DNA of 64,000 bases from Aplysia californica (GCF_000002075.1 NW_004797660.1:327071-391070), one strand, 5' to 3'; shown: positions 12,701-39,300, counted from the stretch's first letter. The notes: generated by a model from the sequence alone, not told the origin. Translations and numbers: made by a program.

Positions 12701-15700
12701 TGTTCAAAAGAAAGTTGCTTGTACAAGATTAGATCTAGCTCTATCTGTGATCTGGAGCTCAGAAAACTTGAGATACATGAATGCTAAAGCATGGTGTTCA
12801 CTGCTTAGAAGACTCTTAAAAACCAAGTATGAAACATTATTAGCGCCATAGAGCTTATCAATCAGAACTCTTCCTTTTCAATAGGACCGATGGTCTTGCC
12901 TAGTCTTGTTATCATAGTCACTTTGTACGCAGTGTTGTAATTTAGTTTCTTGTACCAGCGATATTCTGTTCAGATTAACCTAATGGAAGCAGAACAAATT
13001 TGATCTTTTCAATTTTGGAAACTATTTCAACAGCCTAGCTTTGCCTTATAAAACAAAAAAGACTTAAGAAGATCTCTGTGTGAGCATCTATATAACACTG
13101 CAAAACTTTTGTTTTTGTTTCTGTAAATGAAGAGTGTACTGTTCACTTTTTTACTGATTAATTGGCCTAGCCACAACTATTGTCTGCCCTCAATTATGGC
13201 TACATCTCCTTTACCAGAATCGGCCTCTTTTAGATTACTACTACCGGACTGCCACTGGCTTTGTGTTTGTTGTGAACAGTGCTGACCTTGAGATGATGGA
13301 TGAAGCTTTTGATCAGTTTGACAGTTATATTCTGCAGGTGAGAAGTAATGTGTGTGTTATTTTAATTGCAGTAAGAGGCCATAAGTACTCTCATATTATC
13401 TTATGACAGGACTGTGTATACCCTAAANNNNNNNNNNNNNNNNNNNNNNNNNNNNNNNNNNNNNNNNNNNNNNNNNNNNNNNNNNNNNNNNNNNNNNNNN
13501 NNNNNNNNNNNNNNNNNNNNNNNNNNNNNNNNNNNNNNNNNNNNNNNNNNNNNNNNCAAGGAAAAGAAGAAGAGATAGATTGTGTTTGTGTTGAAATAAT
13601 GCTATAATTAAATTCAGATTAAGCGTCGCAGAAGCTGGTGACAGCACACTGTTTATTTCTTCCATTCGACGATCAGTCAAGGTTTTGCTAATTCATTTTG
13701 CTTTATTTCACATATTATTGTGGAAGTACAGTTGTTACCTGTTTGTTATTTCTTGATTCAGAGGCATTATATCAGGGACATGTCAGTTAAAATCATGTAT
13801 GAGCTGTCAAACTTTCTTTTTGTGGGTGAAAGGCAAGCACCCAATCCTTACACAAAAAAGGATGATCTAGTGCAAAATTTGAAAGTTCATTTCAGAGTTG
13901 TGACGTCCTGACATGTGATAGATAATACCCTTCTGTATTCTGTTTTGTTAAAAATTTCTGAGACAATTGAGAGGAAAGTATGAAATAATACCTCTTCTGG
14001 ACGTAAGGTATTTTATTGAGTATCTCTACCTTTCTGCCTGGGATATTTCCTGTACTTCTCTGGTTTTTCCCTTACAGAAAGAGTCAAAGCATAGGTCTTT
14101 GAAATGATCAAAATAGTGTCAGTTGAGACATGAAAAACTTTGCACTTTTTGTGCTGGGGTCATCGAACAGTCTTTAACTTCTGGGCAAGAGTGATTTGAT
14201 CTAATTCTTTACCAAGGTTTGTTTGGGTTCACGTGAAAATTAATGCTTTATTCGGGTTGTCCGAATGAAACTATTGTATGTGGAAATTGAGCTTCACATG
14301 ATTAGATGTGAGATTGTCAGGGAGCAAACCAATTGCCCTTATCCAGAGAATATATATATATATGAAGAAGCTTTGCACAAAATTTGTATCTTCCTGAGCA
14401 ATTCAAGAAACCTTGTATTTTTATTTACTGTAGAGATTTGTTTGTGCCTTTGAATATAAGGAAGATGTATGTCATTGATTGAACCTAATGTCTAATTGTC
14501 CGGCTGATTTAAATTCATTTGTCCTTTTGATTGCTGAACACAGTCTTGTCAAAGTCCGATAGAGTGATAGTCTATTCAGCGGGATATGCCTTTGTGAAAA
14601 CACCTTACAGTCAGGATCAGGAAAAAAGTCAATGTTTGTCTATCCCTGTGTGTTTCAGAAAGAGGAAACGAAAGGAAGAGTGGTGATGATTCTGGCAAAT
14701 AAACAAGACTTACCCCGTGCTCTGAAATGTGAGGAGCTGGAAAAGAAATTCAGGGAGAGGTTCCCTGACACTCCGGACCGCAGTAAGTTGGTATACACTA
14801 ACATTTAAAAGAAATATGAAGAAATAATATATGCCTCAACATGCAGAAACATTCAACTGTATGCAGAAATGCATCAACATAAACATGAATTCTGCACTGT
14901 AAAGAAACAGGAAAGGAAGTGCACTACTTGAAGTACAGACAAGGCTCACCGTGTCTTTTTTTATTCCTTTACTTGCATTTTTTTGGGGGGGGTGTTTGTA
15001 ATTATGGTAAGGAAAACAACACAGTCTAAAGCAGATGCCAGCCCTGTTGTCCATCATAGATAAATAAGGAGCGGAAATTTTTTTTCCCTCATTTCTCATG
15101 TCTTTTGTTTTTGCAAATGGGCTCTTTCTGAATAAGGAACACTTTGCCAAGGGAAAAAAAGACACAGAAAAGGCGTTTAACAAAACAGCATTAGCAAGTA
15201 ATTTATTCTTATTTGCTTTAGAGGTTTTTAAAAATATTTTTGTCATCAACCCTCTTATCCATCTCTTTAGAAAAGTCTGAGTTCCTCAGGGAACTAGAAA
15301 AAAAAAAAAAATGGAATGAAAACTTAGTTGGATGGCTTTTCAGGTTTGAACATAACAATATTAGGCTATTTTGAGTTTGTGCAATTGCTTCTAGAATGTG
15401 ATTTTGTCTCTTCTAAAACAGTTGTAGGCATTTTACACCCCCTTCAACATAATTAAGATCATTTAGGAGGTAGGCTGCTTCGACCCTGCCTGTCATTGCT
15501 GATCCAGGATGAGAGCGATACAATATCACGGTAGAAAGACAGAGTTACTGGACAAAATTTCTCCCCACTCAGTAATCAAATTCACGTTTTTTTAACAACA
15601 GTGCAACAGTAATGTGCCTAACCACTAAGCTACAGTTGCCATTAATTCTTTTCATATTTACCACAAATATATGTTTTTGTGTCCATAATATGTTACATGC

Positions 15701-16080
15701 ATAGTTTGCATATATGCTTTGGCTGCTTTTCAAGCAGACACCTGAGTGTTAGCAAAATTTCCCCACCCGGATTTTAAATCTATATCAGTCTTTATATTAA
15801 CATTTCCTTTCATTGACCTATTACTTCAATGCCAAACACTGTCTCTATTGGTCTCCCCACAGAGATTTTCTTCCAACCTTGCATTGCATACACGGGAGAA
15901 GGTATCCGTGAGGCCTTTGACATTTTTACCACTGAACTAAAGCTCAACCAAGCAACCTCTAACATTAACATGAAAAGTTCTGTTGAAGGAGGAGATGTGG
16001 CTGAGAGTCCAAAGGAGAATTCCATGAAGTTGCTCTTCAAAAAACCCATGAGTTTCGTGAAGTCTGTGCTAATGTATTGA
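6747..16080 (+). CDS. ADP-ribosylation factor-like (ARF/ARL) small GTPase, atypical, 222 aa, 6 coding exons
   Basis: Exons 6747-6801, 10006-10083, 12593-12666, 13218-13337, 14659-14782 and 15863-16080, all GT-AG with matching phases (669 nt). Protein: MGNFQVKKKVDPQHIIIQGLDAAGKSTLLYNLRYGEINSSYAIIGFPIETLSFKGIDITSWDISGRCAHNRPLLDYYYRTATGFVFVVNSAD...ILANKQDLP...IFFQPCIAYTGEGIREAF...KSVLMY. Shows Gly2, the GLDAAGKS P-loop, NKQD and a CxAxxGEG G5 typical of ARFs. Confidence 0.88.
7330..7520 (+). mobile_element. LINE 3' end fragment with CCHC knuckle and (GAA)n tail
   Basis: Translates HNILQDCPQL...RQKYWP....HQKLYG, a typical non-LTR ORF2 C-terminus; ends gaagaacaaagaagaagaag. Confidence 0.55.
7940..8490 (-). 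mobile_element. tRNA-derived SINE, diverged copy 2
   Basis: gggatctctttaacatgtgcaacttgcaca and gatcaggggtgtagctgagagacagcagtaagaa match the family; head near 8430-8490. Confidence 0.7.
8580..8828. mobile_element. MITE with ATAT target duplication (Sola1-like non-autonomous, tentative)
   Basis: atat-ggtcgcttttaag ... cttaaaagcgacc-atat, perfect inverted ends. Confidence 0.65.
8888..9362 (+). mobile_element. tRNA-derived SINE, copy 3
   Basis: Partial head with ggattcgaatac B-box, pyrimidine-rich body, ttaaagatccc core and atatgaccttatgcagttgc tail. Confidence 0.8.
10471..11127. mobile_element. Diverged pogo/Tigger-type MITE
   Basis: TA-cagt...actg-TA termini with ctcgaa/ttcgag subterminal motifs. 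Confidence 0.5.
11134..11332. mobile_element. 199-bp Tc1/pogo-type MITE
   Basis: TA-cagtgcagcctctctataac ... gttatagagaggctgcactg-TA, 20-bp perfect TIR. Confidence 0.85.
11645..12130 (-). mobile_element. tRNA-derived SINE, copy 4
   Basis: Reverse complement of the family, including the B-box (ggattcgaactc on the + strand). Confidence 0.8.
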
Positions 16081-18977
16081 ATGATTAAAATACATCCATC
16101 TAAACTGTATCTAGTTGTACTTTGAATTTTGTCAATAAATATGAGATTACTTGTGCTGTCAGTAACTTTAAAAATGTTTGCCGAGGAAAAAATTGTCAGA
16201 TTCTGGACCCTTTCAACATACCATTAAAACAGAAACTATAACTTTAGAGTTTTTGCGGGGCGTGACTACTTTCTTTGATCTTTCAAAAAATGTGATGTTT
16301 ATAATATTATGATATATAAAACACTTTATACAAAAGTCATTTGAATATGAATTATGTTCTTTCTGGCTCTCTGAAAGTCTTTGTCTAGTTGTCTTTTTGA
16401 CAGAATTTCTTTTTATTTGTCTACTTCTCTTGGGCAGGCATGCATATGCTCAAATACATACACATAGGCAAACCATCGTTCAGACATCCCTTTCACTATG
16501 TGTCTGCATCAATATCTTTACTCTGATATTTCCTGTATTCTTGAGCCAAATTGTCTTTGCGATGATTTCGTCGGAGATATTCATCATGTTTTGTGAATGA
16601 ATCAGAAGTAATTAGTCATAGTTTTGCTGTTTGTCTTGTCTTGTGTAGTTATCTTTATCTCTAAACAATGCTTTTCTAACTTCATCCCACCTCTCCCTTC
16701 TTTTTCATTTCACTGTTCTTCTGCGAAACAGCATTTATTTTTTGGCGAAATTGTCTCTAGATGCATAATACATGGTATGTGATAATACTATTGTATCAGA
16801 TAGAGTTGCTTTATCTTGTCTGTCAGCAAGAGCACACTGTGACCTTTTGCATTCCTTATATATGTAATTCTAAAATTCAATACAAAATTCATTAAGTTTC
16901 TCTTGAGTTATTTTGCATTTGCTTTTATTTCCGTACTTCTGTTTGGGTTTCTGTGTGTTCTACTGTGAGGACACCTTACAAGTGCAGGGCATTGAGTTTG
17001 GTATTTTTTAAAACCAGAACTCTTGACTTTCCTCACAATAATCAAGATAAGTTTTGAGAAAGAGAGAGAAAATGCTGTACCAAATTTTGTGTAAGCATAC
17101 ACATAAACAGATAACATTGTTTAATGCAATACTGAGTAGAATCACTTGCATTGGGAATTTTACAAACCATTAATGACTATTGTTAGGGATCAAGTGGCTG
17201 GTATGGTAGGTGCCACAAGCATTGTTTTGTGTATTTGAATTCAGAAAAGGGTGTGATATTTAAGGAAGCTGATACAGAGCATACATTTATTAATTGAAGG
17301 TTTTCCTGACTCTTTTTTTTCCACTTCAAATTCTCTTTGTGGACATATTGTTTGTTTTGTTTTTTTAATTGTTTTGTAGTTCTAAAAGAATAAGAAACCA
17401 TTAACAGACTTTAATTTGTCTTTTCATAATGCATGTTCTATACTGAAGGGGTGCAGGAGTCGTATGTTTTTGGTAAACTGGACCTTCAGTCAACATTTGG
17501 GCTAAAAGAGAGTTCGAAACAAGACAGAGTTATTATAGAAGAAAGATAATTTGTCTTTACAAAAAGTATATATTCTATGCTGTTGGTGGTGGGACAGCTC
17601 ATTATCTATGTCCGTCAGCCAGCTCCCTCACTGTGAGATAGTGGTAAAACCTAATTCTTTTCCTGTTATATATAATCACACATGTGTTCAGTTCTTGCTT
17701 CTGTGAGACTGTGTTGCATATTCATAAAAAAACAGCAGCACTGTTTGAACCTACAGTCTACCTACTTTCCCCTTATTATTAAGGGTCAAAGTCTCAGTGT
17801 GAGTAGAAAAAGTAAGGAACCGAAATGGTAACCGGAGAAGCTGAACATTATAAAATGATTATAAATAATAAACAGCATTTATATAGGGCATAACCCCACT
17901 GTACAGCAAGCTCTATGCACTTTACACTAGATCTATATATATTATTACCCCAGCAGAAAATAGAACGCTCGGAAACATTCTCAGCTTTCCAGGAAGCATA
18001 CAGTGCAAGCAGCTGATTAAACACTCAAATACTAACAAACTCACAAGATCTTTCACTGAAAGATTATTCAGGTATATTGCTGCATCTCCAATACTTAGTT
18101 CCCATTGACATATATGTAGCTTTGAGAGAATCACCAACATCCAATTAGCAGGTAAATTTTTTAAAGCATCTGTCAATTAATAAAGAAAATATTATATAGG
18201 CCTGCCTTGCCACATCAAAAAGCCTGTATCAAACTTCTGATTTTGGCTCCAGACTTTGACCTCTCTGTATACATGATGAATGAGAACAGAAATGTATTTT
18301 TGAGGGTGTTTTTTTCTTGTCACAATATTGTTATTTGAAACAAATTTCATGCAGAAAGCTGTCGTTTCTGGGTTGTTAAAAATTACTATTAACTATTGAG
18401 ATGGAGTGTCGTATTGAGTTGGCTGTAGACAGAAAATTTTAACTTTTCTGAAGGTTATGATTGTCATTCCATGAATTAACATTGAAAGACAGAACAAAAA
18501 ACAACCCCCCCCCCCCCACACACACACACAATGAGGATTGTTAGAATCTTAACTTTTTCGGAATAAGCCTATGAAGCAAAATCTTAACGTTTAACTAATA
18601 CGAAGCAAAAATGCATTGACATGATCTGTATGCAGCGAAAGAGACATAATTATAACGGAAAGTTAATGTAAATTGCTACGACTACTAGATAAATCGTGCA
18701 GTTTGTTTTCTTCGCTGCTACACACAAGAAATTGCCCTTGACCTCTGAACTTACCCGATAAAAACAAACAGTTCATGCGCAGCCGTTTGACAATAATATA
18801 ATATTATGTTCTTAAACATTTAAATACTTAATATATAAGTATTAAAGTATTATTGCCCTTGCTGTCTTGGTGTCAATGAAAGTAGATCTACGACTTGACA
18901 GCATTTCCGGGAGAGAGTCGTGGAAATATCCACGGCTCATCAGCCACGGTGGATCCAGCTGTGGAGAGCTAATAATA

Positions 18978-19128
18978 GAAATCGCAGTGGCTACGTTCAC
19001 GGTGCCGTGAACGTAGTCTGAAGGCTAGGTTCACGGCGCCCTGAATGTAGTTGGCAGACGCTGTTGAGGCTACTTTCACAGCACTCAAGCTTCGTTTAGA
19101 GTTAGACGGAGTGTCCACTGCCGGTTTT
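18978..19128 (+). repeat. Palindromic 34-bp-unit block, copy B
   Basis: gaaatcgcagtggctacgttcacggtgccgtgaacgtagtctgaaggctaggttcacggcgccctgaatgtag...ccactgccgg. Confidence 0.85.
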
Positions 19129-19130
19129 CG

Positions 19131-21000
19131 TAGTCAGTGACTACAGTGACGTATATTTAATATTTTGGCCAGCTTCAAATGCTCCATCCCATGAGATGAA
19201 GGAAAACGAAAAAGCCCGGGAACCGACACAGAGAGAAAATGACGGGAATAATTATTATCATAATAGCAAACACCCTCTCTCTCTTTCTGGTCTGTCTCTC
19301 CCCTTTCTCTTTCCTTCTCTCTTTCTCCCCCCCCCCCCTCTCTATTTTCTTTGCCTCTGTCTGTCTGTCTGCCCCCCCCCCTTCTCTCTCCCTCTCTCTT
19401 TCTCTCTCTCTCCCCCCGGAGTTGTGAGTAAAAATCATTTAGCCCCAGAGCTCCCGGGCAGGAAACTGCATCTCACATAGAGGCATATGCCTTGTTACGC
19501 CACTTTGTGAGAATATATGCCGAGGCATATGACCGCATACGCCATGGTATGAAGATGTTTCGTTTTGTTTTCTCGCTTGTGAATGAGGGGGGTGTGTCTC
19601 ATTTCATGTTTAGTAGTCTTGCTGATTCTGTCTCGTTGCATCTTTGAGGGACTTTTATACGCTTCCTTACCATTAGTTCAAGTAGACACGTGTTGTTCTG
19701 GTACCTGTGCTGTAAATGTTATCCTTGCTTTCTCAGCGTTTGATGTTCATGCACCCATAAAGATATGGTATTTTAGCTCATTTGTAAGCTTATAATTATA
19801 AACATTCACTTTTTAAAATATTTTCTACTAGTAAAAGTATTTTATTAGGTCCATGAGTCCCCAAAGATATGGTATTGCAGAAAGTTCTGATTATATTGAT
19901 GATTTAGATGCAGACCCGTCTTTCAAACCTGGTTTCTATGTCATGCAAGAAGAACATATTTGCTGCTTGTGGGAGGTGTGTATTGCTCCTGTATTATACA
20001 TACAGTCACTTTGTGGAAGAAGCATGCTCATTGTAGTCTTTTTTAAAAAACACATAGCATCGTGAGTAGAAAACAGATAAAGCCAGAAGAGAATAACTGT
20101 TGTCGTTGGATATTGTACTCGACCTGAAAATTTCATGGTAGAAGGTGCTGCCAAGGAAGTGACTGCTCAGAAAGGTCTACAGTCCAATAAGTATAAATCA
20201 GCTAACCACAAAGGACATTTTGGAGAGGAGTTCCTTAGCCCTATAACTGAAATACATTTTGGCGTTCACGGGCTTCGAGACAGGTGTATGAATTTGAAAG
20301 CTATGAGAAATATTGTCAAAGCTGTCACACTATTGCGAATGAAGCACACAAGGAAATGTTCCAGCAATATTACAGACTTAGAGACCATCACCTACAACGT
20401 GAGTTCGTTGTTGGTCACATGGACTGCTCTGAATCTATGAAAGGGGCAAGCTGTTCTCGCGGACAGAAAACCAATACATATTACTTGAACTTGACTGTCA
20501 ATGGAATTCCGCCATCTATAAGACAACATCAGAAAAAAGAGGATGATTATGCCCAGCAGTTGTCAAAAAAAGAGATAAAAAAACTTACCATCCTTATTAA
20601 TGCTTTAATTACGAGATTCACCGCTGTAGGTCAATTTCCAGTTAAAAGGACTTGCTCTCAAACATGAACTGAAGAGGAGACAAAACAAAGGCTGAACAAT
20701 CGTATCCACGGAAAAGCCAAAGTGAGAAAACTTAAAGAAGATGCTTTCAGTTGCAATATAATCATAAGCTGAAGTGGAACAGACTCAACAGAGACTATTC
20801 AATAACTATTTATTTCCTACTAACCCATCGTACCAAGCATTGACCTTTCAGCCCCAGAAAAATCAAGTCAAAGACGTTCCATTGTCAGCACTGAACCATG
20901 AACAGCCTAAAAGGCTCCCTATTGCCAAGCACACTTTTCATCAGACTGGGGGAACACACAATGTTCTTTTAACTTTGCCACACGTAACTTAAATAACAGG
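19131..21000 (+). mobile_element. Degenerate DNA transposon relic (Sola-like), longer copy
   Basis: Matches 2325-4222 along its length and extends further. It has a small deletion at the FPAVDSH motif and many stops. Confidence 0.55.
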
Positions 21001-21194
21001 CTACCACTTACACTGTGTTTTGGCATTGAAGTGCCTTTCCAGATCATTTTAATCTTTCTTAACAAACACTTGCGCAATAGTTCATTGATTAACATTGATT
21101 ATGGGCAAATACGTTTATAAGGTATTACACAAATTCATTACACAAGCTCAGAATTTATCTTTCTACTAATATTGTTCTTGTCTAAGGATGGTGC

Positions 21195-21345
21195 GCAGCT
21201 CCTTCTTTCCTATCAAACAACTATCGTACGTATCTCTCCTCCTCCTTTTTTGTGTATGTTATTCTCTTGTAACACCTCTAATCTTCGGCACCTATATGAC
21301 CTTATTGAATTGCAAGTGCTGTAAAACTCTTACTAAAACTAAAAG
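21195..21345 (+). mobile_element. Short 3' tail of a second I-like LINE/SINE family; other copies at ~6050-6205 and ~9750-9915
   Basis: Shared ttcctatcaaaca...taacacctctaatc..gcac.tatatgacc...ttgcaagtgctgtaaaact..actaaa. Confidence 0.7.
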
Positions 21346-22020
21346 CAGTCCTGAAAGAAAGGATATGTGCAGTACTAGTAATTTTATGCTCATTGTATTG
21401 TGCAAATTCTGCATAATACCTTGAAGACAAGTAAGAAAGCTTAACTCTTAAAGTTATTTACATTTCATATCGTGGAGACCCCAAATCTGTTTCTGTTTCT
21501 TTTTCTTGTTGTTTTTCACTCCCCAAAATAGATCACTTTGGCATATTGAGTTGATAAACCTGTTCAATAATCAAGAAAAAAATCCCTTTTCTCTTTATTC
21601 TATTACCAAACGATGTGGCGTATTGTCAGTCTTGTGTCTTTACGGACATAATTATGTTCTCACAAACAGACGTATCAGCTATTTTAAACAATTTCTTAAA
21701 AACTGATAAAGCAATATCTGTAGTCATTATAGGGAATGATAAATCAGTGGTTGTACTAATATCTTGCCAAAAAATGAAACGAAAAAGCTAATGGTTATGC
21801 CACAGCAAGAATTTAAAAAGTGTCCAAAACTTTGAAATGCTCTCCTGAAAAATGCCAAAAATGCTCTTACGCCCTTTNNNNNNNNNNNNNNNNNNNNNNN
21901 NNNNNNNNNNNNNNNNNNNNNNNNNNNNNNNNNNNNNNNNNNNNNNNNNNNNNNNNNNNNNNNNNNNNNNNNNNNNNNNNNNNNNNNNNNNNNNNNNNNN
22001 NNNNNNCCCAGAACGAGATA

Positions 22021-22944
22021 CAGTGGAAACCTGATATAACAGGGATGGTGGGAGTAGAGAAAATGTCCTGTTATATCCGATCCCTGTTAAATCAGAAATG
22101 CAAGGAAAGTAAGCATTTGTGGACTAATCCAGCTGTACTTATTTATGGGTAGTACCCACGAACAGGGATTTTGGCACCAACTCCCTCCTTGCCTACTTAA
22201 ACCACATCAGATGAGCTTGGTCCATAGCATCTGCATCGAGTAGTCTCATCTTCTTTCGATCCAGAGCAAACTTTGCATTGGAGTATGCTGCCACTACCTT
22301 CTCTCTATCCTTGATAATGGTAATGGTGTGAATCGACCCTTGTGTGGAATTTCGAACTGACGACAGATCTCTGCCAGAGGAGCTTGCTTTTTGTCAACAG
22401 CCTGGGTTATTTCGTATTATTTGTCAATTAAAAGGCATTTTCTCTTGCGCTTGACATCGTTGGTGACACATGTGACATTAGTCGTGCGTGTCGCGTGTTG
22501 CGTGTTGCTAGGTTTCGGGCTAGATCGAGGTCTGCAGCACACCGCAGCCCTCTCTCACTTCACACGCTGCGTGTGCTTGCAGTGACATGGCTTGCGTGGG
22601 CTTNNNNNNNNNNNNNNNNNNNNNNNNNNNNNNNNNNNNNNNNNNNNNNNNNNNNNNNNNNNNNNNNNNNNNNNNNNNNNNNNNNNNNNNNNNNNNNNNN
22701 NNNNNNNNNNNNNNNNNNNNNNNNNNNNNNNNNNNNNNNNNNNNNNNNNNNNNNNNNNNNNNNNNNNNNNNNNNNNNGTCAACGAGCCTTTGTCCCTGCT
22801 ATAACCGGTTGGTCTCCAATGAGGCCCTGTTATTGCCGGTAACTTTTAATATAGACAAAGAGTAGGAAAAAACGGGGATTAAAAAAAACCCTGTTATTAC
22901 CGGATCCCTGTTATTACCGGGCCTGTTATATATGGTTTCCACTG
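22021..22944 (-). mobile_element. Tigger/pogo internal-deletion derivative
   Basis: TIRs cagtggaaacctgatataacagg / cctgttatatatggtttccactg with TA flanks. The minus strand at ~22220-22450 retains HTH-psq-like remnants (AEICRQFEIP, TIIKDREKV, DRKKMR). Confidence 0.75.
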
Positions 22945-23299
22945 TATTCATTCTTTCATTCAAACTATTTGCAAGCGTATTTCATATCATGTATGCATTT
23001 TTATACAGTAAAGAGATAAGGAAAGTTGATAGCACGGTTATCTTTTTTTTAATTTCTTGCAACTACGAGACTCGTAGATTCTATGTTCAATGCCCTTCAG
23101 AGCTTCCAAAACACCAACAACGAAGAGCTGAACAGAAAACTAATGAAGATTGAAAAACAGAGCAGTTACAAATGCCTCACAAAACCTGGACGTAACAGTT
23201 ACTTGTGTTCATTAGTTTTAATTTTGTTTTTGTTCAGGAGCTGTTGGTTTCTTACCGAGCTCGAAACCTCTTTTGCACACAGACCCTGTAAGATTTTGA

Positions 23300-24216
23300 A
23301 CATTTGTCAGTGAGGAACAGAGGCTACGAAACTGTCATGGTTTTGGGTGGCCTGGGGTGGAATGAACAAAGCTGCTCTCGTGAGAATCACCGGATGCCTT
23401 GGTTTAGTGGACTCCATCGCGCAAGTGCTGGAACGCCATCTCTTACCCTTTTTTTTCTTCAAGGTGTTATTCAAGTAGAGCTAGTCATCCCCATGCGAAA
23501 CACGGCATTTTCTCATAGGGTCAATGCCATTACAGAATTCTTAAAAAACCAAATCAAGTCAACGTTCGAATAGTTAGCAGCAAACAGCCTTGATATGAAT
23601 CCTACAGGTATGTGAAGTCCCATGAAACAGCGGCTGAAGAAAAACGACTTTGCCCCCAATTCAGACCCTTTGTTTGCAACTCTCTGTGACATTTGAAATG
23701 AAATGACTGATAAATATGTCCAAAACTAAATTGAATTGATGCCCAAAGGTTTCGTGCACAACACAAAGCCAATGGTTTCTAAGTAAAATAACAATGAACA
23801 CAATTAGTGTTGAGTCGAAGTTTTGTGTGGTATCTGTGATTGCTCTGTTTTCCGTTTTGTTTGAAACTATCGTGACAAAATATCGTAACAAAATATTGCT
23901 TATTGCAAAGACACAATTCTCCATTCATTGGGCATTCAATATACCACCATTCGATCAATATTGATACTCTTCAATAAATGCGCAAAGACAATTTTATGTT
24001 TCTTTTATTTCGCACAATTTTGCCAAGCCTTATTTTTTAAAGGTCAATTTTGAGTGACAATATCTCGGGCGTCTCTGAAAATAGATTAAATATTAATGTG
24101 TCGGATGATGAAGAATTTATTTAGCATTAAATTGGTATGCTGCATGCGTGGGTAATGCAAGGCTTTAACACGATGACTGGGTGATTACATTTTCAAGTTT
24201 CTTTTGGACGCCACTG
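23300..24216 (+). mobile_element. Tc1-like transposon 3' relic
   Basis: Degenerate RNTAFSHR..ITEFLKNQ...NSLDMNP (cf. DNA..H...SPDLNPIE) and VQN.IELMPK...KANG. Terminus cttttggacgccactg-TA. Confidence 0.6.
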
Positions 24217-24811
24217 TATAACGGATTACGTTTACAGTAAGTTTTGCACGTCCAAACTTTTAGGAGTTTTCGCTCAAATTGGGCTCTTTCAGGGGGGGGG
24301 GGGGGGGGACACAAAAATATATAATGCGAAAAGTTGTTAAGATATCGTCATAATTTTCGGTATGTTGATTGATGAAACATTATTCTAGTGTAATAAGTAG
24401 TGTCGTAAAAAAAAAAAAAACTTGAATACATGATTTCATAATAAATTTAATCCGTTGTTTGGATCTGAGATTTTTTAGGTAAAAATATTCCCATATTTAG
24501 GACCTCGATTCTGGAAAAGTTTTTCCTCCTACATCAAAAATGCCAAGTCCATCCTCTAAAACAGCCACGGAAGGCTGCAAAACAACTTATTGTAACATTT
24601 AAAATCACTTATAACCTTATGATAGATTTTTTAAAAATGTGTGCATTTTCTATATATGACATTCCAATATGGCAGGCGTTACCATAGCAATACAAAAGAA
24701 TTTTCAAAATTTTACTTCATGACTTAATTCTCCACTCTTTTTATATTGATGCTACCCAATGATGCTACCACATTTGTAAGCAATTTCAAAATTTCCCCCG
24801 CTTCATGCCTT

Positions 24812-24990
24812 AAACCGGCAGTGGACGCTCCGCCTAAACGAAGCTTGAGTGCCGTGAACGTAGCCTCAACAGCGCCTGCAAAATGCATTCAGGGAGCCGT
24901 GAACGAAGCCTGCCAACTACATTCAGGGCGCCGTGAACCTAGCCTGCAGACTACGTTCACGTCGCCGTGAACGTAGCCACTGCGATTTTC
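24812..24990 (-). repeat. Palindromic 34-bp-unit block, copy C (inverted relative to A/B, one extra unit)
   Basis: Reverse complement of block B. Units gccgtgaacgaagcctgccaactacattcagggc and gccgtgaacctagcctgcagactacgttcacgtc are directly visible. Confidence 0.85.
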
Positions 24991-25477
24991 GTTTCTTGGT
25001 AGGTACAAAAGATTGTCAGCTACCAGCCACAGAATTCTACACTTAAATGAAATGAAAATGTGCACACCATGAATCTGATCTGAATCTAAAAATTCCTCTT
25101 GTTGAATAGGGGAGGCCTGTAATAATAGAACACAAAAATTCGAGCTGCCCGTTCAGTTGGGTCAGGGTCCGATTGCTGATTAGTTTTGGGGATTGGGGGA
25201 GGGAGGGGGAGGGGCAGCAGTGACGCATTATTCGCTAGGCCTAACAATAGTAGTCCTAGGCCCGCCTTAGGCCTAATGTTGATCAATCTTTGAAGAAGGC
25301 CTGAGGCCTAGTTGCTAGCGGTGCGAGACTGTGGGCTACACACCCTCTCTGCTACACACAGTAGGCCTACACACTTTCTGTAGATCTGTAATCTGTAGTG
25401 ATCTGACTCTGACCCGAGATAACTCTATGCTCTGACCTAATCACCAATCAGCTGGTGGTAGCATAGAATTCTACACT

Positions 25478-25645
25478 TAATCTAGATCTAGATCTAGATA
25501 TCTAAGCCTCTCGTTCCACCTGCATGACCTGAAGACCATTTTAAAATATTTTAATTGGTGAGGTAGGTTCAATACCAGAGACCAGACCTAATTATTCTAG
25601 ATCTAGATCTAGATCTAGATCTAGATCTAGAATCTAGATGTAGAT
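25478..25645. repeat. (TAGATC)n palindromic microsatellite cluster upstream of the PPT2 coding exons
   Basis: tctagatctagatctagata and ctagatctagatctagatctagatctagatctag; similar clusters at 6398-6610 and 51790-52125. Confidence 0.85.
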
Positions 25646-27323
25646 TCACGCCTAGATTCTTCTATGTAGAAAATTTTCTGTACACACGTAAGATGCCGTT
25701 AATCTTTTAAAACTGTTTGAAAACAAACAACATTTTCTTGAACTTGCACGTTTTAGCGCACATGCCTCCTGTTCACAACTCATAGATAATGTTTTCAAAG
25801 TTGTTTACTATCGTGACACATTGTTGAATTGACTGCTCAGATACATAAGATTCTATAAAAATATAGCAGAGGTGTATCATTTCTAAAGGTATTCATCATG
25901 ACCTAATTTTTTAAATAAAAATAAAAATTATTTATCTCATAACATGAATAATGAAATAAATCTAGATCTAGACTAATTATAAATAAAAGGCACTGCAAGT
26001 GGTTTATTTTCCATATAATTTTATTGCTGTGGTCAGCTGACATTGGGAAGGTAATCTTTGGTTTTTTATCGTCATGGTAATGGAGTCGAGCACAGATTTA
26101 AAAAAAAATCAGGTACAGCTCATATTATATATAATTTGCAATTCCCTGACTGATAATCTCATAAATTTTTGTATTGGATTCTAATTTACGCAAATTACGG
26201 ATATGTGTTGAACACTTTTTTGTCAATCCCTGAAGTGTTTGAGTCATCTGTGTTGGACTGTTTGACTTTTTCTTCAGTCATCATGGTGAAGTCAGGCGCT
26301 TGTCAAAATAATGAAATTAGAGAAACCAACATTTTCAGCTTGATGGGGAAACTGTTATCAGTTTAAGAAAGAAAAAAGAATTGGCTCAACATCTTTTATG
26401 TTTCTATTCAATTTTAAGAACTTTGAATTTCTCTGTGAATTTTGCTGAAAAACATTGATCACAAACACAAAAAAAAGTTAATTTGCAGTTTCTTAGGACA
26501 TTCTAACTTGAGTACCGGTATTCACCACTTTGGTGGCCATTTTCTAATTAATTTTATATCTGAACAAGCGAACCCCACCTCCTTCAATTGCAATACAGTC
26601 AATTTCTATTCTAGAGAGATGGATATTTTTTCATAAGAGCAAGATAAATGAGCAAGCTCTAAGATGATGCCAATAATTCTGTGTATGTATGCCAAAGAAC
26701 TGAAGAGCACCTGATTCTGTGTCATGACACAAATGTTTAGTTTCAACATTACCCAGCAGGGTATGTTATATATTACTTTTAAGAAGAGAAAAGATGAAAT
26801 TGAATATAATACTTTTCCTCTAGCTGGGTTGTTATTTTTTCCCCCTATTTCAGGGAATAAACATTAAACAGGCTTCTGTGATGTAACAATTACACTCACA
26901 CGGCTGCATGTAAAATACTCAAATTTGATCCCACAAGTGGACTAGTCTGTTTTATCAAAAGTATGTCTTTCCAATGTCATCCCAATCTGAGTCGGCCCTG
27001 ACAGATAGGACATGATCAAAGCAGCCAGCTTGAAAAATTTCTTAACTGAGTCGATGGAGACATGAAACATTATATTTACTATCAACATCAGATGAATTGG
27101 AAGTAAAAATAAAATAAATTGCTCTCAGCCTTATGATTGAATGATTGACACCTTTTCTGATTTTCCAAGTCCCTGCACTTTGATCAAACTAGTTATTCAT
27201 GAATAATTCCAACTCATAATAATAATTTTGTTTTTTTTCTTCAGAGCAGACCCTTTGTTGTTGTGAGACTTGCTCTTCAAGAAAGCTGATGACTGACTGA
27301 TCCACTTTGCTTCGATTGCTATC

Positions 27324-33300: not shown

Positions 33301-36300
33301 CAGTATTATATCATGACTCACAGTATTATATCATGACTCTCAGTATTATATCATGATGACTTCAGTTGTTATTCTGCAATGAGAGACAATCCTACCCGCT
33401 TATAATATAAAGTCTCAAGAACATTCTATATGAAGTTTATAGAAATTGTTTTCGAGGTCTGAGGCGGCTTTGGGTATGGATAAAATACTTGATATTCCTC
33501 AGTTGCTCATTCCTTTGTCTTTAACATTAACTTTTTATGTCTATAGCTTGTTCACTTTCATCTGACCGCATTTAAAAAATTCTAGCTCATTGAGCTCATG
33601 TGCCCACGAAACTTTGCATGGCTCTTCTGCAGGCCAGCGACCAAACAAAACTATTTTTAAAAAAAATCTTCACCATGTAATAAAAAGTTTTTCTCTTTGG
33701 GCCCTATATTAAGCACCACTCTTTGGATGCATACACAGGATCACTAAATTAAATGACTTACAGTTGCCTTGCCTACAAATCACTCATTTTGAGACAGCGA
33801 CACCCCCCTGCCTCCACATTTCAGTGTAAGCTTGTAGATTTCATCTCCCGGCTGTCTAGACGTCTCCATGTGCTCCACGTGAGTCTAAAAAAATACTCAC
33901 CCCGTCTCTTGAATCCTGTTTCTTAGGTGAACGTTGAAGAGTGATGTTGAAGAAAATATGTCACTTTTTCAATGTTTTTGGTGCATGCTGTAAGTCCTCT
34001 ATTATGTTTTTGACCCGCTTTAGGCATACATCAAAGAAAACGTGTCGGAACCTTAGTTTGCAGTGACTTTTATAAAATGGGCTTTTAGATTCTGTTGGTC
34101 GCTTGACTTTTAGACCAGCATTCAAAGACCCAGAAAGAACAGAACGCTTTGTTTTTATCCCGTTTTAACGGTGGTCAGACAAAGGTGAACGAGCTATAAC
34201 ATTTGGATATCTATAGTGGAAGTTTCTTTTATGTTACATATATATCACCTTGATAATGTGTTTGAGAATTTGGACACTTATTAGTTTTGTATGTATAAGT
34301 TGTATTGGGTGTATTGAGTTAAGAGAATATCTCTCTGAAAATTCTGTTAGATACGAATTTCTAAATCCCATGTCAAATAAACCAGCACATGATTTCTACT
34401 TTAACCCAATAGACTTTAAAAAAATCATTCCCCTCACAGTGTTTCATAGCCCTATAATATTGAAAATGTTTAATAGTTTTAGCTAGACCAAAATTAAAAT
34501 AAAAGAACATTTATATTACTTTTTTTTTTCTTGGTCAAATTTCATTTTTGGAATGTGAGTAATATGTCATACTCACATATCTTCATGTCATATACAGCTG
34601 CCAAATCTCTTGTGCTTTCATTTTGTTCTTCTGTGCCCATTCACACATTCAGCATGTAAGAGAATGTATAATTGAACATAGAATATACACACTGTGATGG
34701 ACATCTGTACTGTTGGTCCTTTATTCTGTATACAGTCGAACCTGTCCAATACTGGGAATTTGTCAAAACGGAATCTCCCCGCTGTGTGCTTGATAAATTC
34801 CTCTGTGATACACCTGTCTAGGAGTTAAACCTACTCAACACAGAAACAGAAAGAGAAACTCCTCCCTTTTTGAGGGTTATGGTCTATGTAAAATGGAAAT
34901 GGGTTTGCTTGCGTAGCCTTGATTTGAAATTAAACTCCCAAGTTTGGTGCCATCGGTTTGAACCATAATGCCAGGCCGCAAGGCATGTGATTTTTGAGGG
35001 ACTTAGTTGGTCAGAAAGTCCAGTACAAACATCGCAAGACAGTCACTGCAGTGGAACCCACAGGGAGCATAAGGCAAGGGTAGGCCACGGGAAACATGGA
35101 GGAGATGTGTGGAATAAAGGGACATGAGAAAGATGAAGCTCTCTTAGAATTGGAAGGAAAGCCCAAAGGAGCTTGTATGTGGCATGTACCCTGCCAGGGG
35201 GGGGAGGGGAGGCATTGATAATAGTTGGTCAGGATGGCGTGGGCATGACATTTCACCATTGCTTGTGAAAGTACTTCAGTGGCGCTCCAGCACAATACTT
35301 TCCAGGGTAACGAGATGTAAAAAATTGATTTGATCACTTCCTGCCACCTTGATTGTACAGCTAGCCCAGAAAAAAGTTCCTGGAATCTTTATTATAATTA
35401 TGCATGGGAGAAGTGGCATTGTTGATTGCACTTATGACATAAATAGGTGGGGGCTAAGTGTGAAAACAAAGAAAAAGTTTGTTTATTTTTTATTGGTCAA
35501 ACAGTAGTCCAATGAGATGCACGAACTGATAGCAATGGATAAATAGTACTGATACATGGCATTATCAGAGAAGTTATGACAGCACTTGTGAGGTGGGAAG
35601 TTTTCACTACTGCTTGTGGACTGGACAGGCAACCCTTGATCCCAACATTAGCTGGCTGGCTCTTTGGGACCTCCCCCCCCCTTACACACACACACCCTCC
35701 GCCCTAAATTTCCCTGTGAAAGACAAAAAATGTCTAAAACTTAATTTTATTCTGGCTCTCTTACAGTTTGGTCGTGGACAGGTTTGACTGTAGGCCTATA
35801 TTATACCAGTACCAGTATTTGAATAGTAGGCCTACATTCTGTGATATATGTTCTTAGCTGTTCTTGTTTTTAGCAATTGTGCTATTTGTTGCCTGTATCT
35901 TTATGTTTTCATTATTGTAATGAATTCCCAAAAATTTCAACTTGTACTCTTTAACCTCTGCAGATCCTCATGAGCAAAAATTGTTCCAGAAATTTTCAAC
36001 TTACCTGGCAACTTTGAACAACCAGTCTGACACTTTCAACCCAAAGAGTCATGGTAAGATTCTTGTGCAGTGTTGCCAAAGTCAATTTCTAAGCCTTATA
36101 AAAAAAAAAATATGTTTAAGCTTTTCTATGAATCTACCTTTTTCAGAGATTTCTAAAAGTTTAAAACCCGTTCTCAAGATGAGTGTGTTTGTCTGTTACA
36201 GAGTTCAAAGAAAACTTCCTGAGACTGAAAAACATTGTGATGGTTGGTGGACCTGATGATGGAGTCATTACACCATGGCAGTCTAGGTATGTGCCTCTAG

Positions 36301-39300
36301 GTGTGAGGGTCTTAACTCTCTATAACCCCGGGGGGACGATGGGAGCGTCCAGTGAAACTCGTATGGTCCCCAAGTGGACTGTCCCAGCGTCCCCTGAGAT
36401 CGTAGAGTACATGAAGCATTACTGCTAATGTTATCTCTTATGAATCCTAATAGATTATTTTTTACTTGGAAGTGATAGATAAATGTATGAACTACTTCCT
36501 CTTTCACGTTGACACAGTTTTAGCTCTTTTATGAATATTTTGCATGTATACCTCATTATGTGTTTCACAAGATCTTGAAAAAATTCCATTGAAAATGTAG
36601 ACAATAATTCTGGGGTTAAAAAGTTAAGCTGGGTTCTGCAGTGATATTGTGAATGAATGAGTGGTAAATTGAATGAATATTTGATAAGTGAATTCATAAG
36701 TGAGCAACTGAAGGGAAAAAGAATTTTGTCGGGAGAGTTGAACTTGCATCTAGAGGGAATAAGAAAAGTGCTTGTTACCTTTTGCTCTAGCACAGATCAG
36801 CTCAACATATCTCTTCAGTTTTATCCTTACTATTTGCATGATTAAGCTGTGGGGGATTTTAAAAGATTCTGCTTTCCTTTTTGTCACATACAGTTGCACA
36901 CACACTTAGCAAAATCGGCGGGAAGCGGAAATCTTTTCTTTTTGTACGAATTTTGCTATGTACTTGTTATGAATACAATGAATATACATGGTGTGTAATG
37001 AAAAATTCCATGCAGGAAAATCTGTTTGCTGTGTGCATGTTGGCTATGTGCATGCTAGACTATATTTCATTCTTCATTTCCTTTTGTGTTTTTTGTTCTC
37101 ACAGTCAGTTTGGTATGTACAATGCCTCAGAGAAAGTGCTGCCCATGGAAAAGCAAGAAGTGAGTTTTGTTACACATTCCGCAATATGTAGGTAAATCTT
37201 AGTTCCACTGTTGGTTACAAGGATCTAGTCCCAATGAAGTTTAAGTAGCTGAAAGATGTACTTTAAAATCCCCTTTAACTCTTTATCATCAGAGAGGTTT
37301 TTCCTACTATGTCGGATGCGTCTCCTCACATCACTAAATTGGTCATTGAATGAAATCAATTGAACCTATTTTGATAGTTCCTCGTCTAATAAAAGAACTC
37401 CCGGTAAGAGAAACTTATTTTCAGTTGTTACCAAATATTACTAATAAAAATAATAGATAGCATTTATACTGCGCATTTCCATTTTCTAAAAAATGCTCAG
37501 TGCGCGTTACAATCATAAAAATATCACATTTTAAAAAATGAATAGGGGGCTCTCGTGGCCTAGAGGTTAAAGTGTTGGCCTCTCATTCAAAGGTCCCGGG
37601 TTCGAATCCGGATAGTGACTGACAAATTTTCTTCTCTAAAATTTTTCCTTTCACCTCCTTTCCTGCTCTCTTGCAATGTTCTGTCGTCTGCTTTCATTTC
37701 CACTTTCTGCCCCCACCCCCTCACCTCCTTTGCCCCCTCCTCTGGGCTCCTGACTCTTTCTGCAGCCTTTCTACTGCTACTCCTTGGCTGCTCTTTACTG
37801 CTGTCTTTCTGCCACACCCCTGATCTTCTGGTTGGAAAGATCTACACCTAGCCTTCTCGGACAAGGGCGAAAAATGTCGGAGGGCCTGTGTGCAAGTTGC
37901 GCACGTTAAAGATCCCATGGTGGTCTAAAATCGATAAGAGTAGGCTTCGGCCGCCACCCGGGCAAAATTCAAAATTTCCTACCAACTGAAAATATTAGGT
38001 GTGTCCCGCGCACTTATATTACCTTATGCAGTTGCGAGCGTTGTAAAACTTTTTACAAAAACAAAAAAAGCAACCAAAAAAACAAACAATGAATGTACAT
38101 GTGTGTATGTAAAACATAATATGATGAATGTATGTGTATTTGTCATGTATAAAAAATTTCTATGAGAAAATTAGTCTGGCAGTGAGCCTGGCAATGCATG
38201 CACTAAATGCACTGAAAAAAATGTAGAATNNNNNNNNNNNNNNNNNNNNNNNNNNNNNNNNNNNNNNNNNNNNNNNNNNNNNNNNNNNNNNNNNNNNNNN
38301 NNNNNNNNNNNNNNNNNNNNNNNNNNNNNNNNNNNNNNNNNNNNNNNNNNNNNNNNNNNNNNNNNNNNNNNNNNNNNNNNNNNNNNNNNNNNNNNNNNNN
38401 NNNNNNNNNNNNNNTGTATCAAAATAAGTAAAAGTTCATCGTTATATCAAGTATGCTCTTGTGAATAAGTAATGCTTCAGCTGTATTTTGAAAATGTGAT
38501 TATTGGGCCATGGGGACTGGGTAGAGAGAATGAACGCGGGGAACGACTGGTAGAATGGTGCAGAGAAAATAATTTTATGATATCAAACACCTGGTATGAA
38601 AATCACTCAAGAAGAAGATACACTTGGAAGGGTCCTGACTATAGAAGTAGAAATCAAATAGACTTCATACTTTTTCAGAAATGTTTTAGAAACACAATAA
38701 AATCATCTAAATCAATGCCTGGAGCAGACTGTGATAGTGATCATGTACCAGTCATGTATAAAATCCGGATACGACTAAAGAAACTCAAAAAGTCAAAGTA
38801 TGAACATAAATTTGACATAGGTCTTTTAAAGACAAATCAAGAAATGAAAGAACGCTTCTCCATAGATGTAAGAAATAAATTTCAAGCTTTGGAAAACATT
38901 ACTAAATCGGAAGAACTATGGAGGAAAATGAAAGACTCAATAATGGAAGCTGTGGAAGAAAATATCCCCCCGAAAGCTAAAAAAGCAAATAAAAAATGGA
39001 TGACCCAGGACATATTAAACCTAATGGAAGAGAGAAGAAAGGCAAAATCAAATGTAGAAAAGTACAACATCTTAAACAGGGAAATAAAGAAAAAATGCAA
39101 CGAAGCAAAAGAAACATGGATAAACGATCAGTGTCAACAAATAGAGAAGAACCAAAACAAAGACAGCAAATACATGCATTCAAAAATCAAAGAAGTAAGT
39201 GGGATAAAAGGATGCTCAAATACAGGATGCATAAGATCAAAGGGAGGGGATATTTTAATGGACAACGGGGATGTCTTAAACAGATGGTCAGAATACATAG

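What the first reader, a model, noticed from the sequence alone, without database searches (positions are those of the whole stretch)
18978..24990. Blocks of tandem 34-bp palindromes with 13-8-13 geometry, next to gene 5' ends and bracketing a 6-kb segment
Seen: three blocks (2198-2324, 18978-19128, and inverted 24812-24990) are built from a unit whose consensus GCCGTGAACGTAG-CCTGCAGG-CTACGTTCACGGC is a perfect 34-bp palindrome. Real units have asymmetric 8-bp cores (cctgcaga, cctgccaa), unit number differs between blocks, and each block is bounded by GCAGTGG/CCACTGC. The GCAGTGG end always faces an adjacent outward-pointing 5' end: the EF-Tu start ~220-270 bp away, a candidate minus-strand transcript at ~18.8-18.9 kb, and the presumed PPT2 5' region. 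Established: 13-8-13 is the layout of tyrosine-recombinase sites (loxP, FRT), and Crypton elements use tyrosine recombinases in eukaryotes. Inference: these may be recombination or terminal sites of a promoter-associated mobile system that gains and loses units. Read in the other phase, they are stacked 17+17-nt CAGGC...GCCTG foldback or TIR footprints. No recombinase gene is visible in this window.
Basis: partly seen in the sequence, partly recalled or inferred. Interest (0 to 1): 0.7.

Follow-up and report, generated by a model that had tools for sequence, protein, structure and literature searches.

The report
Foldback transposon ends beside gene starts
These palindrome blocks are the mirror-image ends of a jumping-gene family with more than a hundred ends in this animal genome, likely moved by a Mutator-type enzyme and likely landing near gene starts, and two neighbouring copies may have carried a whole host gene along with them.

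Summary
The blocks are real but are not recombinase sites. They are the long, foldback-type terminal inverted repeats (TIRs) of a non-autonomous DNA transposon: 130 exact termini genome-wide, and a perfect 9-bp target-site duplication (TSD) in 17 of 31 end pairs, the Mutator (MULE) signature. The unit is a 26-bp palindrome plus an asymmetric 8-bp spacer; the claimed core CCTGCAGG occurs in 1 of 107 spacers. The transposase remnant inside is a nested Kolobok-type passenger (TTAA ends); the mobilising enzyme was not found. No tyrosine-recombinase gene shares a contig with a listed terminus. Flanks are rich in a motif weakly tied to gene starts (22 of 47 sites versus 10 of 148 random kb), so promoter bias is likely and Mu-like. 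Oddity: the 6-kb copy lacks its own TSD, but its right flank matches block 1's left flank at 8 of 9 bases (chance about 1%), suggesting a 22.8-kb composite element that holds a single-copy Arf-family gene.

The parts
2197..2322 (+). Left TIR of copy 1 (first base changed, first 13-bp arm lost)
   Evidence: Sequence; matches genomic TIRs 85-93%
2197..4221 (+). Copy 1: left 2 kb of the element, right part lost; joined at 4221/4222 to a piece of another repeat
   Evidence: Self-BLAST
2188..2196 (+). ATTTTTGTT, candidate left copy of an outer 9-bp TSD
   Evidence: Sequence; 8 of 9 match to 24985-24993; chance rate
18983..19126 (+). Left TIR of copy 2 (terminus CGCAGTGG, two 26-bp palindromes)
18974..18982 (+). 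AATAGAAAT, left flank of copy 2; not repeated at the right end (6 mismatches)
19417..21877 (+). Nested 2.5-kb non-autonomous TIR element of another family (its left end trimmed here); marks a sub-lineage of at least 5 copies
   Evidence: free copies L104, L105 with their own inverted ends
22021..22944. Nested CAGTGG...CCACTG element with TA on both sides (Tc1/pogo-like; family label recalled, no Pfam match)
   Evidence: Sequence
22945..24809 (+). Interior shared with the 3.5-kb family (90-93%); holds remnants of a Kolobok-type element: transposase piece 23082-23147 and 3' region 24313-24809 ending at its terminus
   Evidence: PF20700 E=1.6e-7 in sister copy L046
24810..24813 (.). TTAA target into which the Kolobok-type element inserted, at the inner edge of the right TIR
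   Evidence: older subfamilies read TTAA then GTAAGC here; intact relatives L091-L093 have TTAA at both ends
24813..24984 (-). Right TIR of copy 2 (172 bp, three 26-bp palindromes)
24985..24993 (+). ATTTTCGTT, right flank; candidate right copy of the outer TSD
   Evidence: junction also present in two other samples
6747..16078 (+). Arf-family host gene (predicted coding exons near 6747-6801, 13218-13338, 14660-14783, 15863-16078), single copy, lying between copy 1 and copy 2
   Evidence: Pfam PF00025 E=1.3e-4 on two exons, translations, genome search
359..1984 (-). Single-exon EF-Tu open frame pointing away from copy 1
   Evidence: Pfam GTP_EFTU E=6e-63
25245..25562 (+). Likely non-coding first exon of the palmitoyl-protein thioesterase gene (ATG 27324), about 260-310 bp outside the right TIR
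   Evidence: Contigs of two runs guessed to be RNA cover it; one ends at the GTAGGT donor with 146 further letters lying elsewhere; PF02089 exon at 36183-36425

Best explanation
The blocks are the long terminal inverted repeats of a non-autonomous cut-and-paste DNA transposon with a 9-bp target-site duplication, likely mobilised in trans by a Mutator (MULE)-type DDE transposase of the foldback kind. Shown: each end is CGCAGTGG followed by 1-4 units of a 26-bp palindrome plus an 8-bp spacer and a tail; ends come in inverted pairs around interiors from almost nothing to 9.8 kb; insertion duplicates 9 AT-rich bases. Inferred: the terminal 8-mer marks the cut, and each 13-bp arm is a transposase binding site, so a palindrome would seat two subunits and more units would strengthen pairing, as shown for Muta1's subterminal repeats. 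Inferred: because each unit is a palindrome, units of the left and right end are also direct repeats of each other, so slippage and gap repair change unit number and collapse elements to 42-, 128- and 231-bp minis without any recombinase. Shown: the 3.5-kb subfamily, to which the window copies belong, carries the broken right part of a TTAA-specific Kolobok-type element as cargo. Likely: the family prefers open DNA at gene starts, as maize Mu does. Possible (about even odds): in this window the outer ends of two neighbouring copies moved together as one 22.8-kb composite.
For: 9-bp TSD: 17 perfect and 3 one-mismatch of 31 end pairs; lengths 4-8 and 10-12 give at most 2 perfect (pairs). 130 exact termini, control 0; 387 first-look candidates, 40 scored. 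TIR lengths step by 34 bp. Interiors differ between subfamilies while ends are kept. MULEs have TIRs over 100 bp and 8-10-bp TSDs, and Muta1 has a terminal motif plus variable subterminal repeats that bind transposase (PMC5499845, passages); Tm1 is a Mutator/foldback family with variable 13-15-bp repeats and 9-bp TSDs (PMC3169594, passages). The genome holds 37 PF10551 matches. Flank motif enrichment: 22 of 47 sites and, in a second set, 8 of 19 flanks versus 10 of 148 random kb. Mu targets transcription starts (PMC7337890, passages).
Against: No autonomous partner was found: 1 of 35 wide stretches around MULE matches holds a TIR of this family, 4.3 kb upstream of a broken MULE frame and with no second end in about 33 kb; 30 further MULE-like loci (1.5 kb each side) hold none. 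So the superfamily rests on TSD length and TIR build, not on an enzyme. 11 of 31 pairs lack the TSD, the window's 6-kb pair among them. The promoter proxy is weakly validated (5 of 20 first coding exons versus 0 of 19 last exons, p=0.027; p=0.056 on a wider measure), CpG content of flanks does not differ from background (p=0.37), and the outer kilobase of PF20700 loci is also enriched (15 of 56). Binding of arms by a transposase was not tested.
Confidence: 0.85

Rival explanations
1. The units are loxP/FRT-like sites of a tyrosine recombinase (Crypton-like system).
For: One reading frame of the array gives 13-8-13 with an asymmetric core; the genome holds tyrosine-recombinase genes (17 PF00589, 5 PF12012 matches).
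Against: Site-specific 9-bp TSDs and TIRs are not Crypton features (PMC3212892, passages); none of the 22 matches is on a contig with a listed terminus (100 of 130 exact termini listed; compared by eye); the array is phased from the element end as 8+26; collapsed minis join inside arms or through filler DNA, not within the 8-bp core.
Confidence: 0.02
2. The PF20700 ('Mutator-like') transposase whose remnant lies inside is the element's own enzyme.
For: Remnant over the Pfam cut-off in a sister copy (E=1.6e-7); 62% identical to intact frames L059, L061, L064.
Against: Those intact elements (3 of 3) end in TTAA plus a 17-bp TIR starting GG and carry no palindromic arms; that same end sits inside the right TIR; older subfamilies have the TTAA site empty and no remnant at the end. 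TTAA duplication, RR...YY ends and a C/DxxH motif are Kolobok marks (PMC9587614, passages).
Confidence: 0.04
3. The ends are foldback TIRs but the enzyme is another DDE superfamily able to make 9-bp duplications (Rehavkus, Merlin, or a P/Galileo-like line).
For: No MULE partner found. Rehavkus has 9-bp TSDs and TIRs up to 400 bp (PMC6446971, passages); foldback ends also occur in the P superfamily (PMC5499845).
Against: TSD is sharply 9 bp; P-type 7-8 bp and Merlin GG termini are recalled, not from a call; Rehavkus is itself MULE-related. These families were not searched in the genome.
Confidence: 0.09
4. Sub-question on the window only: copies 1 and 2 are two independent promoter insertions (local hop), each lost its TSD by small deletions, and the 8-of-9 outer match is chance.
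For: 11 of 31 pairs lack a TSD; neighbouring copies occur elsewhere (C304); both gene pairs (EF-Tu with the Arf gene; the unverified minus transcript with the thioesterase gene) would be plausible native head-to-head pairs; the match needs the first TIR base of copy 1 to be read as changed C to A.
Against: 33 of 5120 pairs from different loci match within one base (0.6%), and 0 of 102 termini flanks match this 9-mer within one base; the one difference is C/T at a CpG; the register is exact on both sides.
Confidence: 0.5

Closest known systems
Muta1 (Aedes aegypti MULE, type 2 foldback; PMC5499845, passages seen)
   Same: TIR about 145 bp made of a short terminal motif plus a variable number of subterminal repeats; 8-9-bp TSD; non-autonomous copies with unequal repeat numbers at the two ends.
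   Different: Muta1 repeats are 12-bp head-to-tail units with 3-4-bp linkers and the palindrome is the terminal motif; here the repeats themselves are head-to-head 13-bp arms (26-bp palindromes) with 8-bp spacers, and no transposase is linked.
Tm1 Mutator/Foldback family (Meloidogyne; PMC3169594, passages seen)
   Same: Composite TIRs of variable length built from 13-15-bp repeats, short outer motif, inner tail, 9-bp TSD, mostly non-autonomous copies with unrelated interiors.
   Different: Tm1 outer motifs are asymmetric and its repeats are not palindromic; Tm1 has a Phantom-like transposase copy, none was tied to this family.
Maize Mu and Pack-MULEs; Drosophila P (PMC7337890, passages seen)
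   Same: Strong preference for gene 5' ends, which this family likely shares.
   Different: Shown there with de novo insertions and annotated starts; here only a motif proxy and a few gene examples.
Kolobok superfamily (PMC9587614, passages seen) - for the nested cargo only
   Same: TTAA duplication, RR...YY termini, C/DxxH motif in the intact relatives L091-L093.
   Different: It is a passenger inside the foldback element, with its left end deleted; single open frame, no accessory gene seen.
Ac/fAc macrotransposons of maize (PMC9910405, passages seen); FB-flanked composite elements of Drosophila (recalled, not confirmed)
   Same: Outer ends of two neighbouring elements moving 10-28 kb of host DNA, with a TSD at the outer ends.
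   Different: Here inferred from one 8-of-9 match in an old, likely fixed arrangement; no donor site or empty allele seen.
Crypton / loxP / FRT (PMC3212892, passages seen)
   Same: A 13-8-13 reading of the array exists.
   Different: No TIRs or site-specific 9-bp TSDs in Cryptons; no recombinase near these ends.

Membership tests
MULE (Mutator) superfamily, foldback type | 8-11-bp TSD, usually 9 | tested here: met
   17 perfect + 3 one-mismatch of 31 pairs at 9 bp
MULE (Mutator) superfamily, foldback type | Long TIRs (over 100 bp) | tested here: met
   104-206 bp, longer in older subfamilies
MULE (Mutator) superfamily, foldback type | TIR of terminal motif plus variable subterminal tandem repeats | tested here: met
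   8-bp terminus plus 1-4 units of 34 bp
MULE (Mutator) superfamily, foldback type | MULE DDE transposase encoded by an element with the same TIRs | tested here: inconclusive
   37 PF10551 matches; 1 of 35 wide stretches has one TIR 4.3 kb from a broken MULE frame, no second end; assembly gaps hide many ends
MULE (Mutator) superfamily, foldback type | Insertion bias to gene 5' ends | tested here: inconclusive
   Motif proxy enriched but weakly validated; no annotation or CAGE at hand
MULE (Mutator) superfamily, foldback type | Transposase binds the subterminal repeats | not testable with these tools
   Needs a binding assay
Crypton / tyrosine-recombinase element | No TIRs; 4-6-bp terminal direct repeats | tested here: not met
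   Long TIRs and 9-bp site-specific TSDs
Crypton / tyrosine-recombinase element | Tyrosine-recombinase gene inside or beside the ends | tested here: not met
   0 of 22 matches on a contig with a listed terminus; 30 of 130 exact termini were not listed
Crypton / tyrosine-recombinase element | Circular intermediates joined in the spacer | not tested
   No long reads laid
Kolobok (nested cargo and intact relatives L091-L093) | TTAA TSD | tested here: met
   3 of 3 intact relatives, both ends
Kolobok (nested cargo and intact relatives L091-L093) | 5'-RR ... YY-3' termini with short TIR | tested here: met
   GG start, 17-bp TIR
Kolobok (nested cargo and intact relatives L091-L093) | DDD/E transposase with C/DxxH signature | tested here: met
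   CINH in the 664-690-aa frames; PF20700 E=6e-59
Kolobok (nested cargo and intact relatives L091-L093) | Placement inside Kolobok on a transposase tree | not tested
   No reference sequences at hand
Composite / macrotransposon (window 2197-24984) | TSD at the outer ends of two elements | tested here: met
   8 of 9, chance about 0.6-1%
Composite / macrotransposon (window 2197-24984) | Empty target site or donor site showing the move | not testable with these tools
   No related genome held; two other samples carry the same right junction

The most novel reading that the evidence does not exclude
A promoter-seeking foldback Mutator family in a mollusc-like animal, with head-to-head palindromic binding arms, used the outer ends of two neighbouring copies to move 22.8 kb holding an intact, single-copy Arf-family gene into the shared promoter of EF-Tu and the thioesterase gene: gene relocation by a composite transposon that became common or fixed.
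Probability: 0.42. Interest if true: 0.55.

Novelty: new member of a known kind. Interest (0 to 1): 0.33.

Why it matters
The main result removes a false lead: 13-8-13 geometry here is a by-product of palindromic transposase sites in a foldback TIR. It also warns that a Pfam 'Mutator-like' (PF20700) match can be Kolobok cargo. If the promoter bias holds, it extends Mu/P-style targeting of transcription starts to an animal group where my searches showed no report. If the composite reading holds, it is a dated case of a DNA transposon pair relocating a whole working host gene and splitting a bidirectional promoter, one route by which gene order changes in animals.

Tried and rejected
1) PF20700 remnant taken at first as the element's enzyme; rejected when its intact relatives showed TTAA ends. 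2) MULE locus L187 shares 140 bp with one interior, but that piece belongs to another short inverted-repeat element there; rejected as a link. 3) MULE frame at C700 near one TIR: no second end, link unproven. 4) tblastn of frames from MULE loci against TIR loci gave only shared LINE and simple repeats; two FLYWCH-type proteins against 151 TIR-bearing sequences gave nothing. 5) CpG content as promoter proxy: no difference. LSM loci as positive control: too short to judge. 6) A second AATAGAAAT at 6567 has no TIR beside it; taken as chance. 7) No RNA holder on record was listed; the runs laid are contigs, cannot show a start or strand, and showed no empty allele at the right junction. The left part of the window (EF-Tu side, Arf gene, 18.8-kb candidate transcript) has no reads laid. 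8) Paper searches: (five terms on palindromic MULE TIRs) 0 papers; some searches gave the comparisons cited, none describing this family; Repbase and Dfam could not be searched, so it may be catalogued there. 9) Scan notes: none by sequence, by words or in relatives. 10) Folding of the three blocks gives long hairpins as expected of palindromes; no shuffled control, not used as evidence.
Full report
OBSERVATION. The three blocks are at the stated places. Self-comparison shows block 3 inverted against blocks 1 and 2 (83-87%), and blocks 1 and 2 alike far beyond the block: 2207-2627 with 19005-19417 (88%) and 2910-4221 with 19417-20708 (93%). TRF finds the 34-bp period in block 3. The genome (927 Mb, animal with spliced genes; earlier scan notes call it a snail or sea hare, not tested here) holds 130 exact copies of the terminal 18-mer and 0 of the reversed control; a DNA search gave 387 first-look candidates, 40 scored, many as inverted pairs 3-6 kb apart.

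ANATOMY OF THE END. Aligned ends from different sites agree from CGCAGTGG inward and disagree outward. Over 83 distinct termini the distance to the inner tail is mostly 104, 138, 172 or 206 bp, so whole 34-bp units are gained and lost. The unit is a 26-bp palindrome (two 13-bp arms head to head) and an 8-bp spacer. Of 107 spacers counted, 48 are TTGGCAGG, 34 TCTGCAGG and 1 CCTGCAGG: the perfect 34-bp palindrome of the finding is a two-strand average. Collapsed copies of 42, 128 and 231 bp exist; the 231-bp one keeps a perfect TSD. Inference: palindromic units are both inverted and direct repeats across the two ends, which lets slippage and gap repair delete between them.

TARGET-SITE DUPLICATION. 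Of 31 left-right end pairs (all pairs, misses and the window pair included) 17 have a perfect and 3 a one-mismatch 9-bp duplication; lengths 4-8 and 10-12 give at most 2 perfect. The 9-mers are 12% G+C. Long TIRs with 8-11-bp TSDs define MULEs (PMC5499845 and PMC6446971, passages). Muta1 and Tm1 are foldback MULEs with a terminal motif and a variable number of subterminal repeats; in Muta1 more repeats give more binding and more excision (passages).

INTERIOR. The 6-kb copy is the common 3.5-kb element (90-93% over 18983-19417 and 22945-24984) with two nested insertions: a 2.5-kb TIR element (19417-21877; free copies) and a TA-flanked element (22021-22944). A sister copy carries a PF20700 'Mutator-like' remnant (E=1.6e-7). 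The genome has 114 PF20700 matches; the nearest intact frames are 62% identical to the remnant. These 5-kb elements end, 3 of 3, in TTAA plus a 17-bp TIR starting GG, and that end lies right inside the right palindromic TIR of the 3.5-kb family, where older subfamilies show the TTAA site unoccupied. TTAA, RR...YY and C/DxxH are Kolobok marks (PMC9587614, passages; frames). So the remnant is cargo. Other subfamilies (0.5-2.3 kb) share the ends but not the interior.

SEARCH FOR THE ENZYME. 37 PF10551 matches; 35 stretches of 5.5-10 kb around them were screened and 1 holds a TIR, 4.3 kb upstream of a broken MULE frame whose N-terminus reads like a FLYWCH finger (motif recalled), with a 1.2-kb gap between and no second end in about 33 kb. 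56 relatives of that frame were found; the 30 fetched loci hold no TIR. The mobilising enzyme is therefore inferred. Tyrosine recombinases: 17 PF00589 and 5 PF12012 matches, none on a contig that carries a terminus listed (100 of 130 listed) or 57 (compared by eye). Cryptons lack TIRs (PMC3212892, passages).

GENE STARTS. In the window, EF-Tu (359-1984, minus) starts 220-270 bp outside copy 1. Outside the right TIR, contigs of two runs guessed to be RNA cover 25245-25562, one ending at a GTAGGT donor with 146 letters lying elsewhere: likely exon 1 of the thioesterase gene (ATG 27324; PF02089 exon 36183-36425). The minus-strand transcript at 18.8 kb stays unverified. Genome-wide I had no annotation and used clusters (4 or more per kb) of AGATCT/TCTAGA/AGGCCT as a proxy: 29 of 60 flanks (those with 900 or more bases and under 100 N) versus 10 of 148 random kb; 22 of 47 with one flank per element (p=3e-9) and 8 of 19 in a second, older subfamily (p=1.4e-4). 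Against: the proxy is weak (within 1 kb of 5 of 20 first coding exons versus 0 of 19 last exons of Ras-family genes, p=0.027; p=0.056 on a wider window), CpG does not differ, and outer kilobases of PF20700 loci score 15 of 56, of MULE loci 5 of 46. Examples: a DNL-zinc-finger frame 1.8 kb and a NUDIX frame 2.8 kb from termini. Such bias is known for Mu, Pack-MULEs and P (PMC7337890, passages).

THE WINDOW'S OUTER DUPLICATION. The 6-kb pair has no TSD (AATAGAAAT against ATTTTCGTT). The nine bases before copy 1 are ATTTTTGTT (2188-2196), in exact register if 2197 is the changed first TIR base, and differ from the right flank only by C/T at a CpG. Among 5120 pairs of termini from different loci 33 match within one base (0.6%), and 0 of 102 flanks match this 9-mer so; with two registers tried, about 1%. 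Copies 1 and 2 are 93.4% alike, no closer than to three other copies of their sub-lineage (91.7-93.9%), so they are separate insertions 17 kb apart, not a recent duplication. Between them lies an Arf-family gene (ATG 6747 to stop 16078), single-copy in the 2.5 kb searched. The simplest single mechanism is a composite move by the left end of copy 1 and the right end of copy 2, as with maize macrotransposons of 10-28 kb (PMC9910405, passages). The rival is two insertions, lost TSDs (11 of 31 pairs lack one) and chance. Two other samples carry the same right junction; no empty allele or related genome was at hand. I put it at about even.

VERDICT. Observation partly confirmed; recombinase reading not supported; foldback TIR reading supported. 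New member of a known kind (non-autonomous foldback MULE-like family), confidence 0.85, interest 0.33. Not found in print; Repbase and Dfam not searchable. Of all papers I saw passages only; no supplements were read.

Noticed in passing
G000 C636, C280, C144 (L091-L093): Near-intact 5-kb Kolobok-type elements with TTAA ends, 17-bp TIRs and one 664-690-aa frame that Pfam labels 'Mutator-like' (PF20700); 114 PF20700 matches in the genome, several with open frames over 600 aa.
   Followed up: partly
L315 4715-5671 (G000 C700): Broken FLYWCH-like plus MULE frame between a TIR of this family and a Tim10-like exon (names from reading the translation); link to the family unproven.
   Followed up: yes
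G000 C8:1565487 (L110) and C247:282128: 42-bp copies made of the two terminal 8-mers around a single 26-bp palindrome; also 128- and 231-bp collapsed copies.
   Followed up: partly
window 359-1984: EF-Tu open frame without introns, with a long N-terminal extension (likely mitochondrial), in an otherwise intron-rich region.
   Followed up: partly
window 25001-26000, 6001-7000, 51501-52000: Clusters of AGATCT/TCTAGA/AGGCCT near predicted first exons; used here as a promoter proxy and only weakly validated.
   Followed up: partly
window 19417-21877 and 2910-4221; free copies L104, L105: A 2.5-kb non-autonomous element with about 27-bp inverted ends, 59 candidates in the genome, no Pfam match; superfamily not determined.
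   Followed up: partly
window 4222-4811: Piece of a Tc1/pogo-like repeat joined to the break of copy 1; the same repeat is nested in the TIR element at C700.
   Followed up: partly
window 16400-18950, minus strand: Donor-like sites and AT-rich frames of a possible minus-strand transcript; no Pfam match over cut-off, not verified.
   Followed up: partly
window 38469-40826 (+) and 52493-53473 (+): Endonuclease/reverse-transcriptase pieces of a LINE-like element, and an RNase H frame.
   Followed up: no
window 55969-56367 (+): Exon with a methyltransferase domain (Pfam Methyltransf_25, E=1.9e-5).
   Followed up: no
window 25008-25075 and about 25450-25480: A short repeat beside the right TIR, present twice and also elsewhere in the genome by read depth and loose ends.
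   Followed up: no
L181 (G000 C254:388551-398353): A 9.8-kb copy with a perfect 9-bp TSD, showing that these ends can bracket long interiors; no open frame of 170 aa or more.
   Followed up: partly
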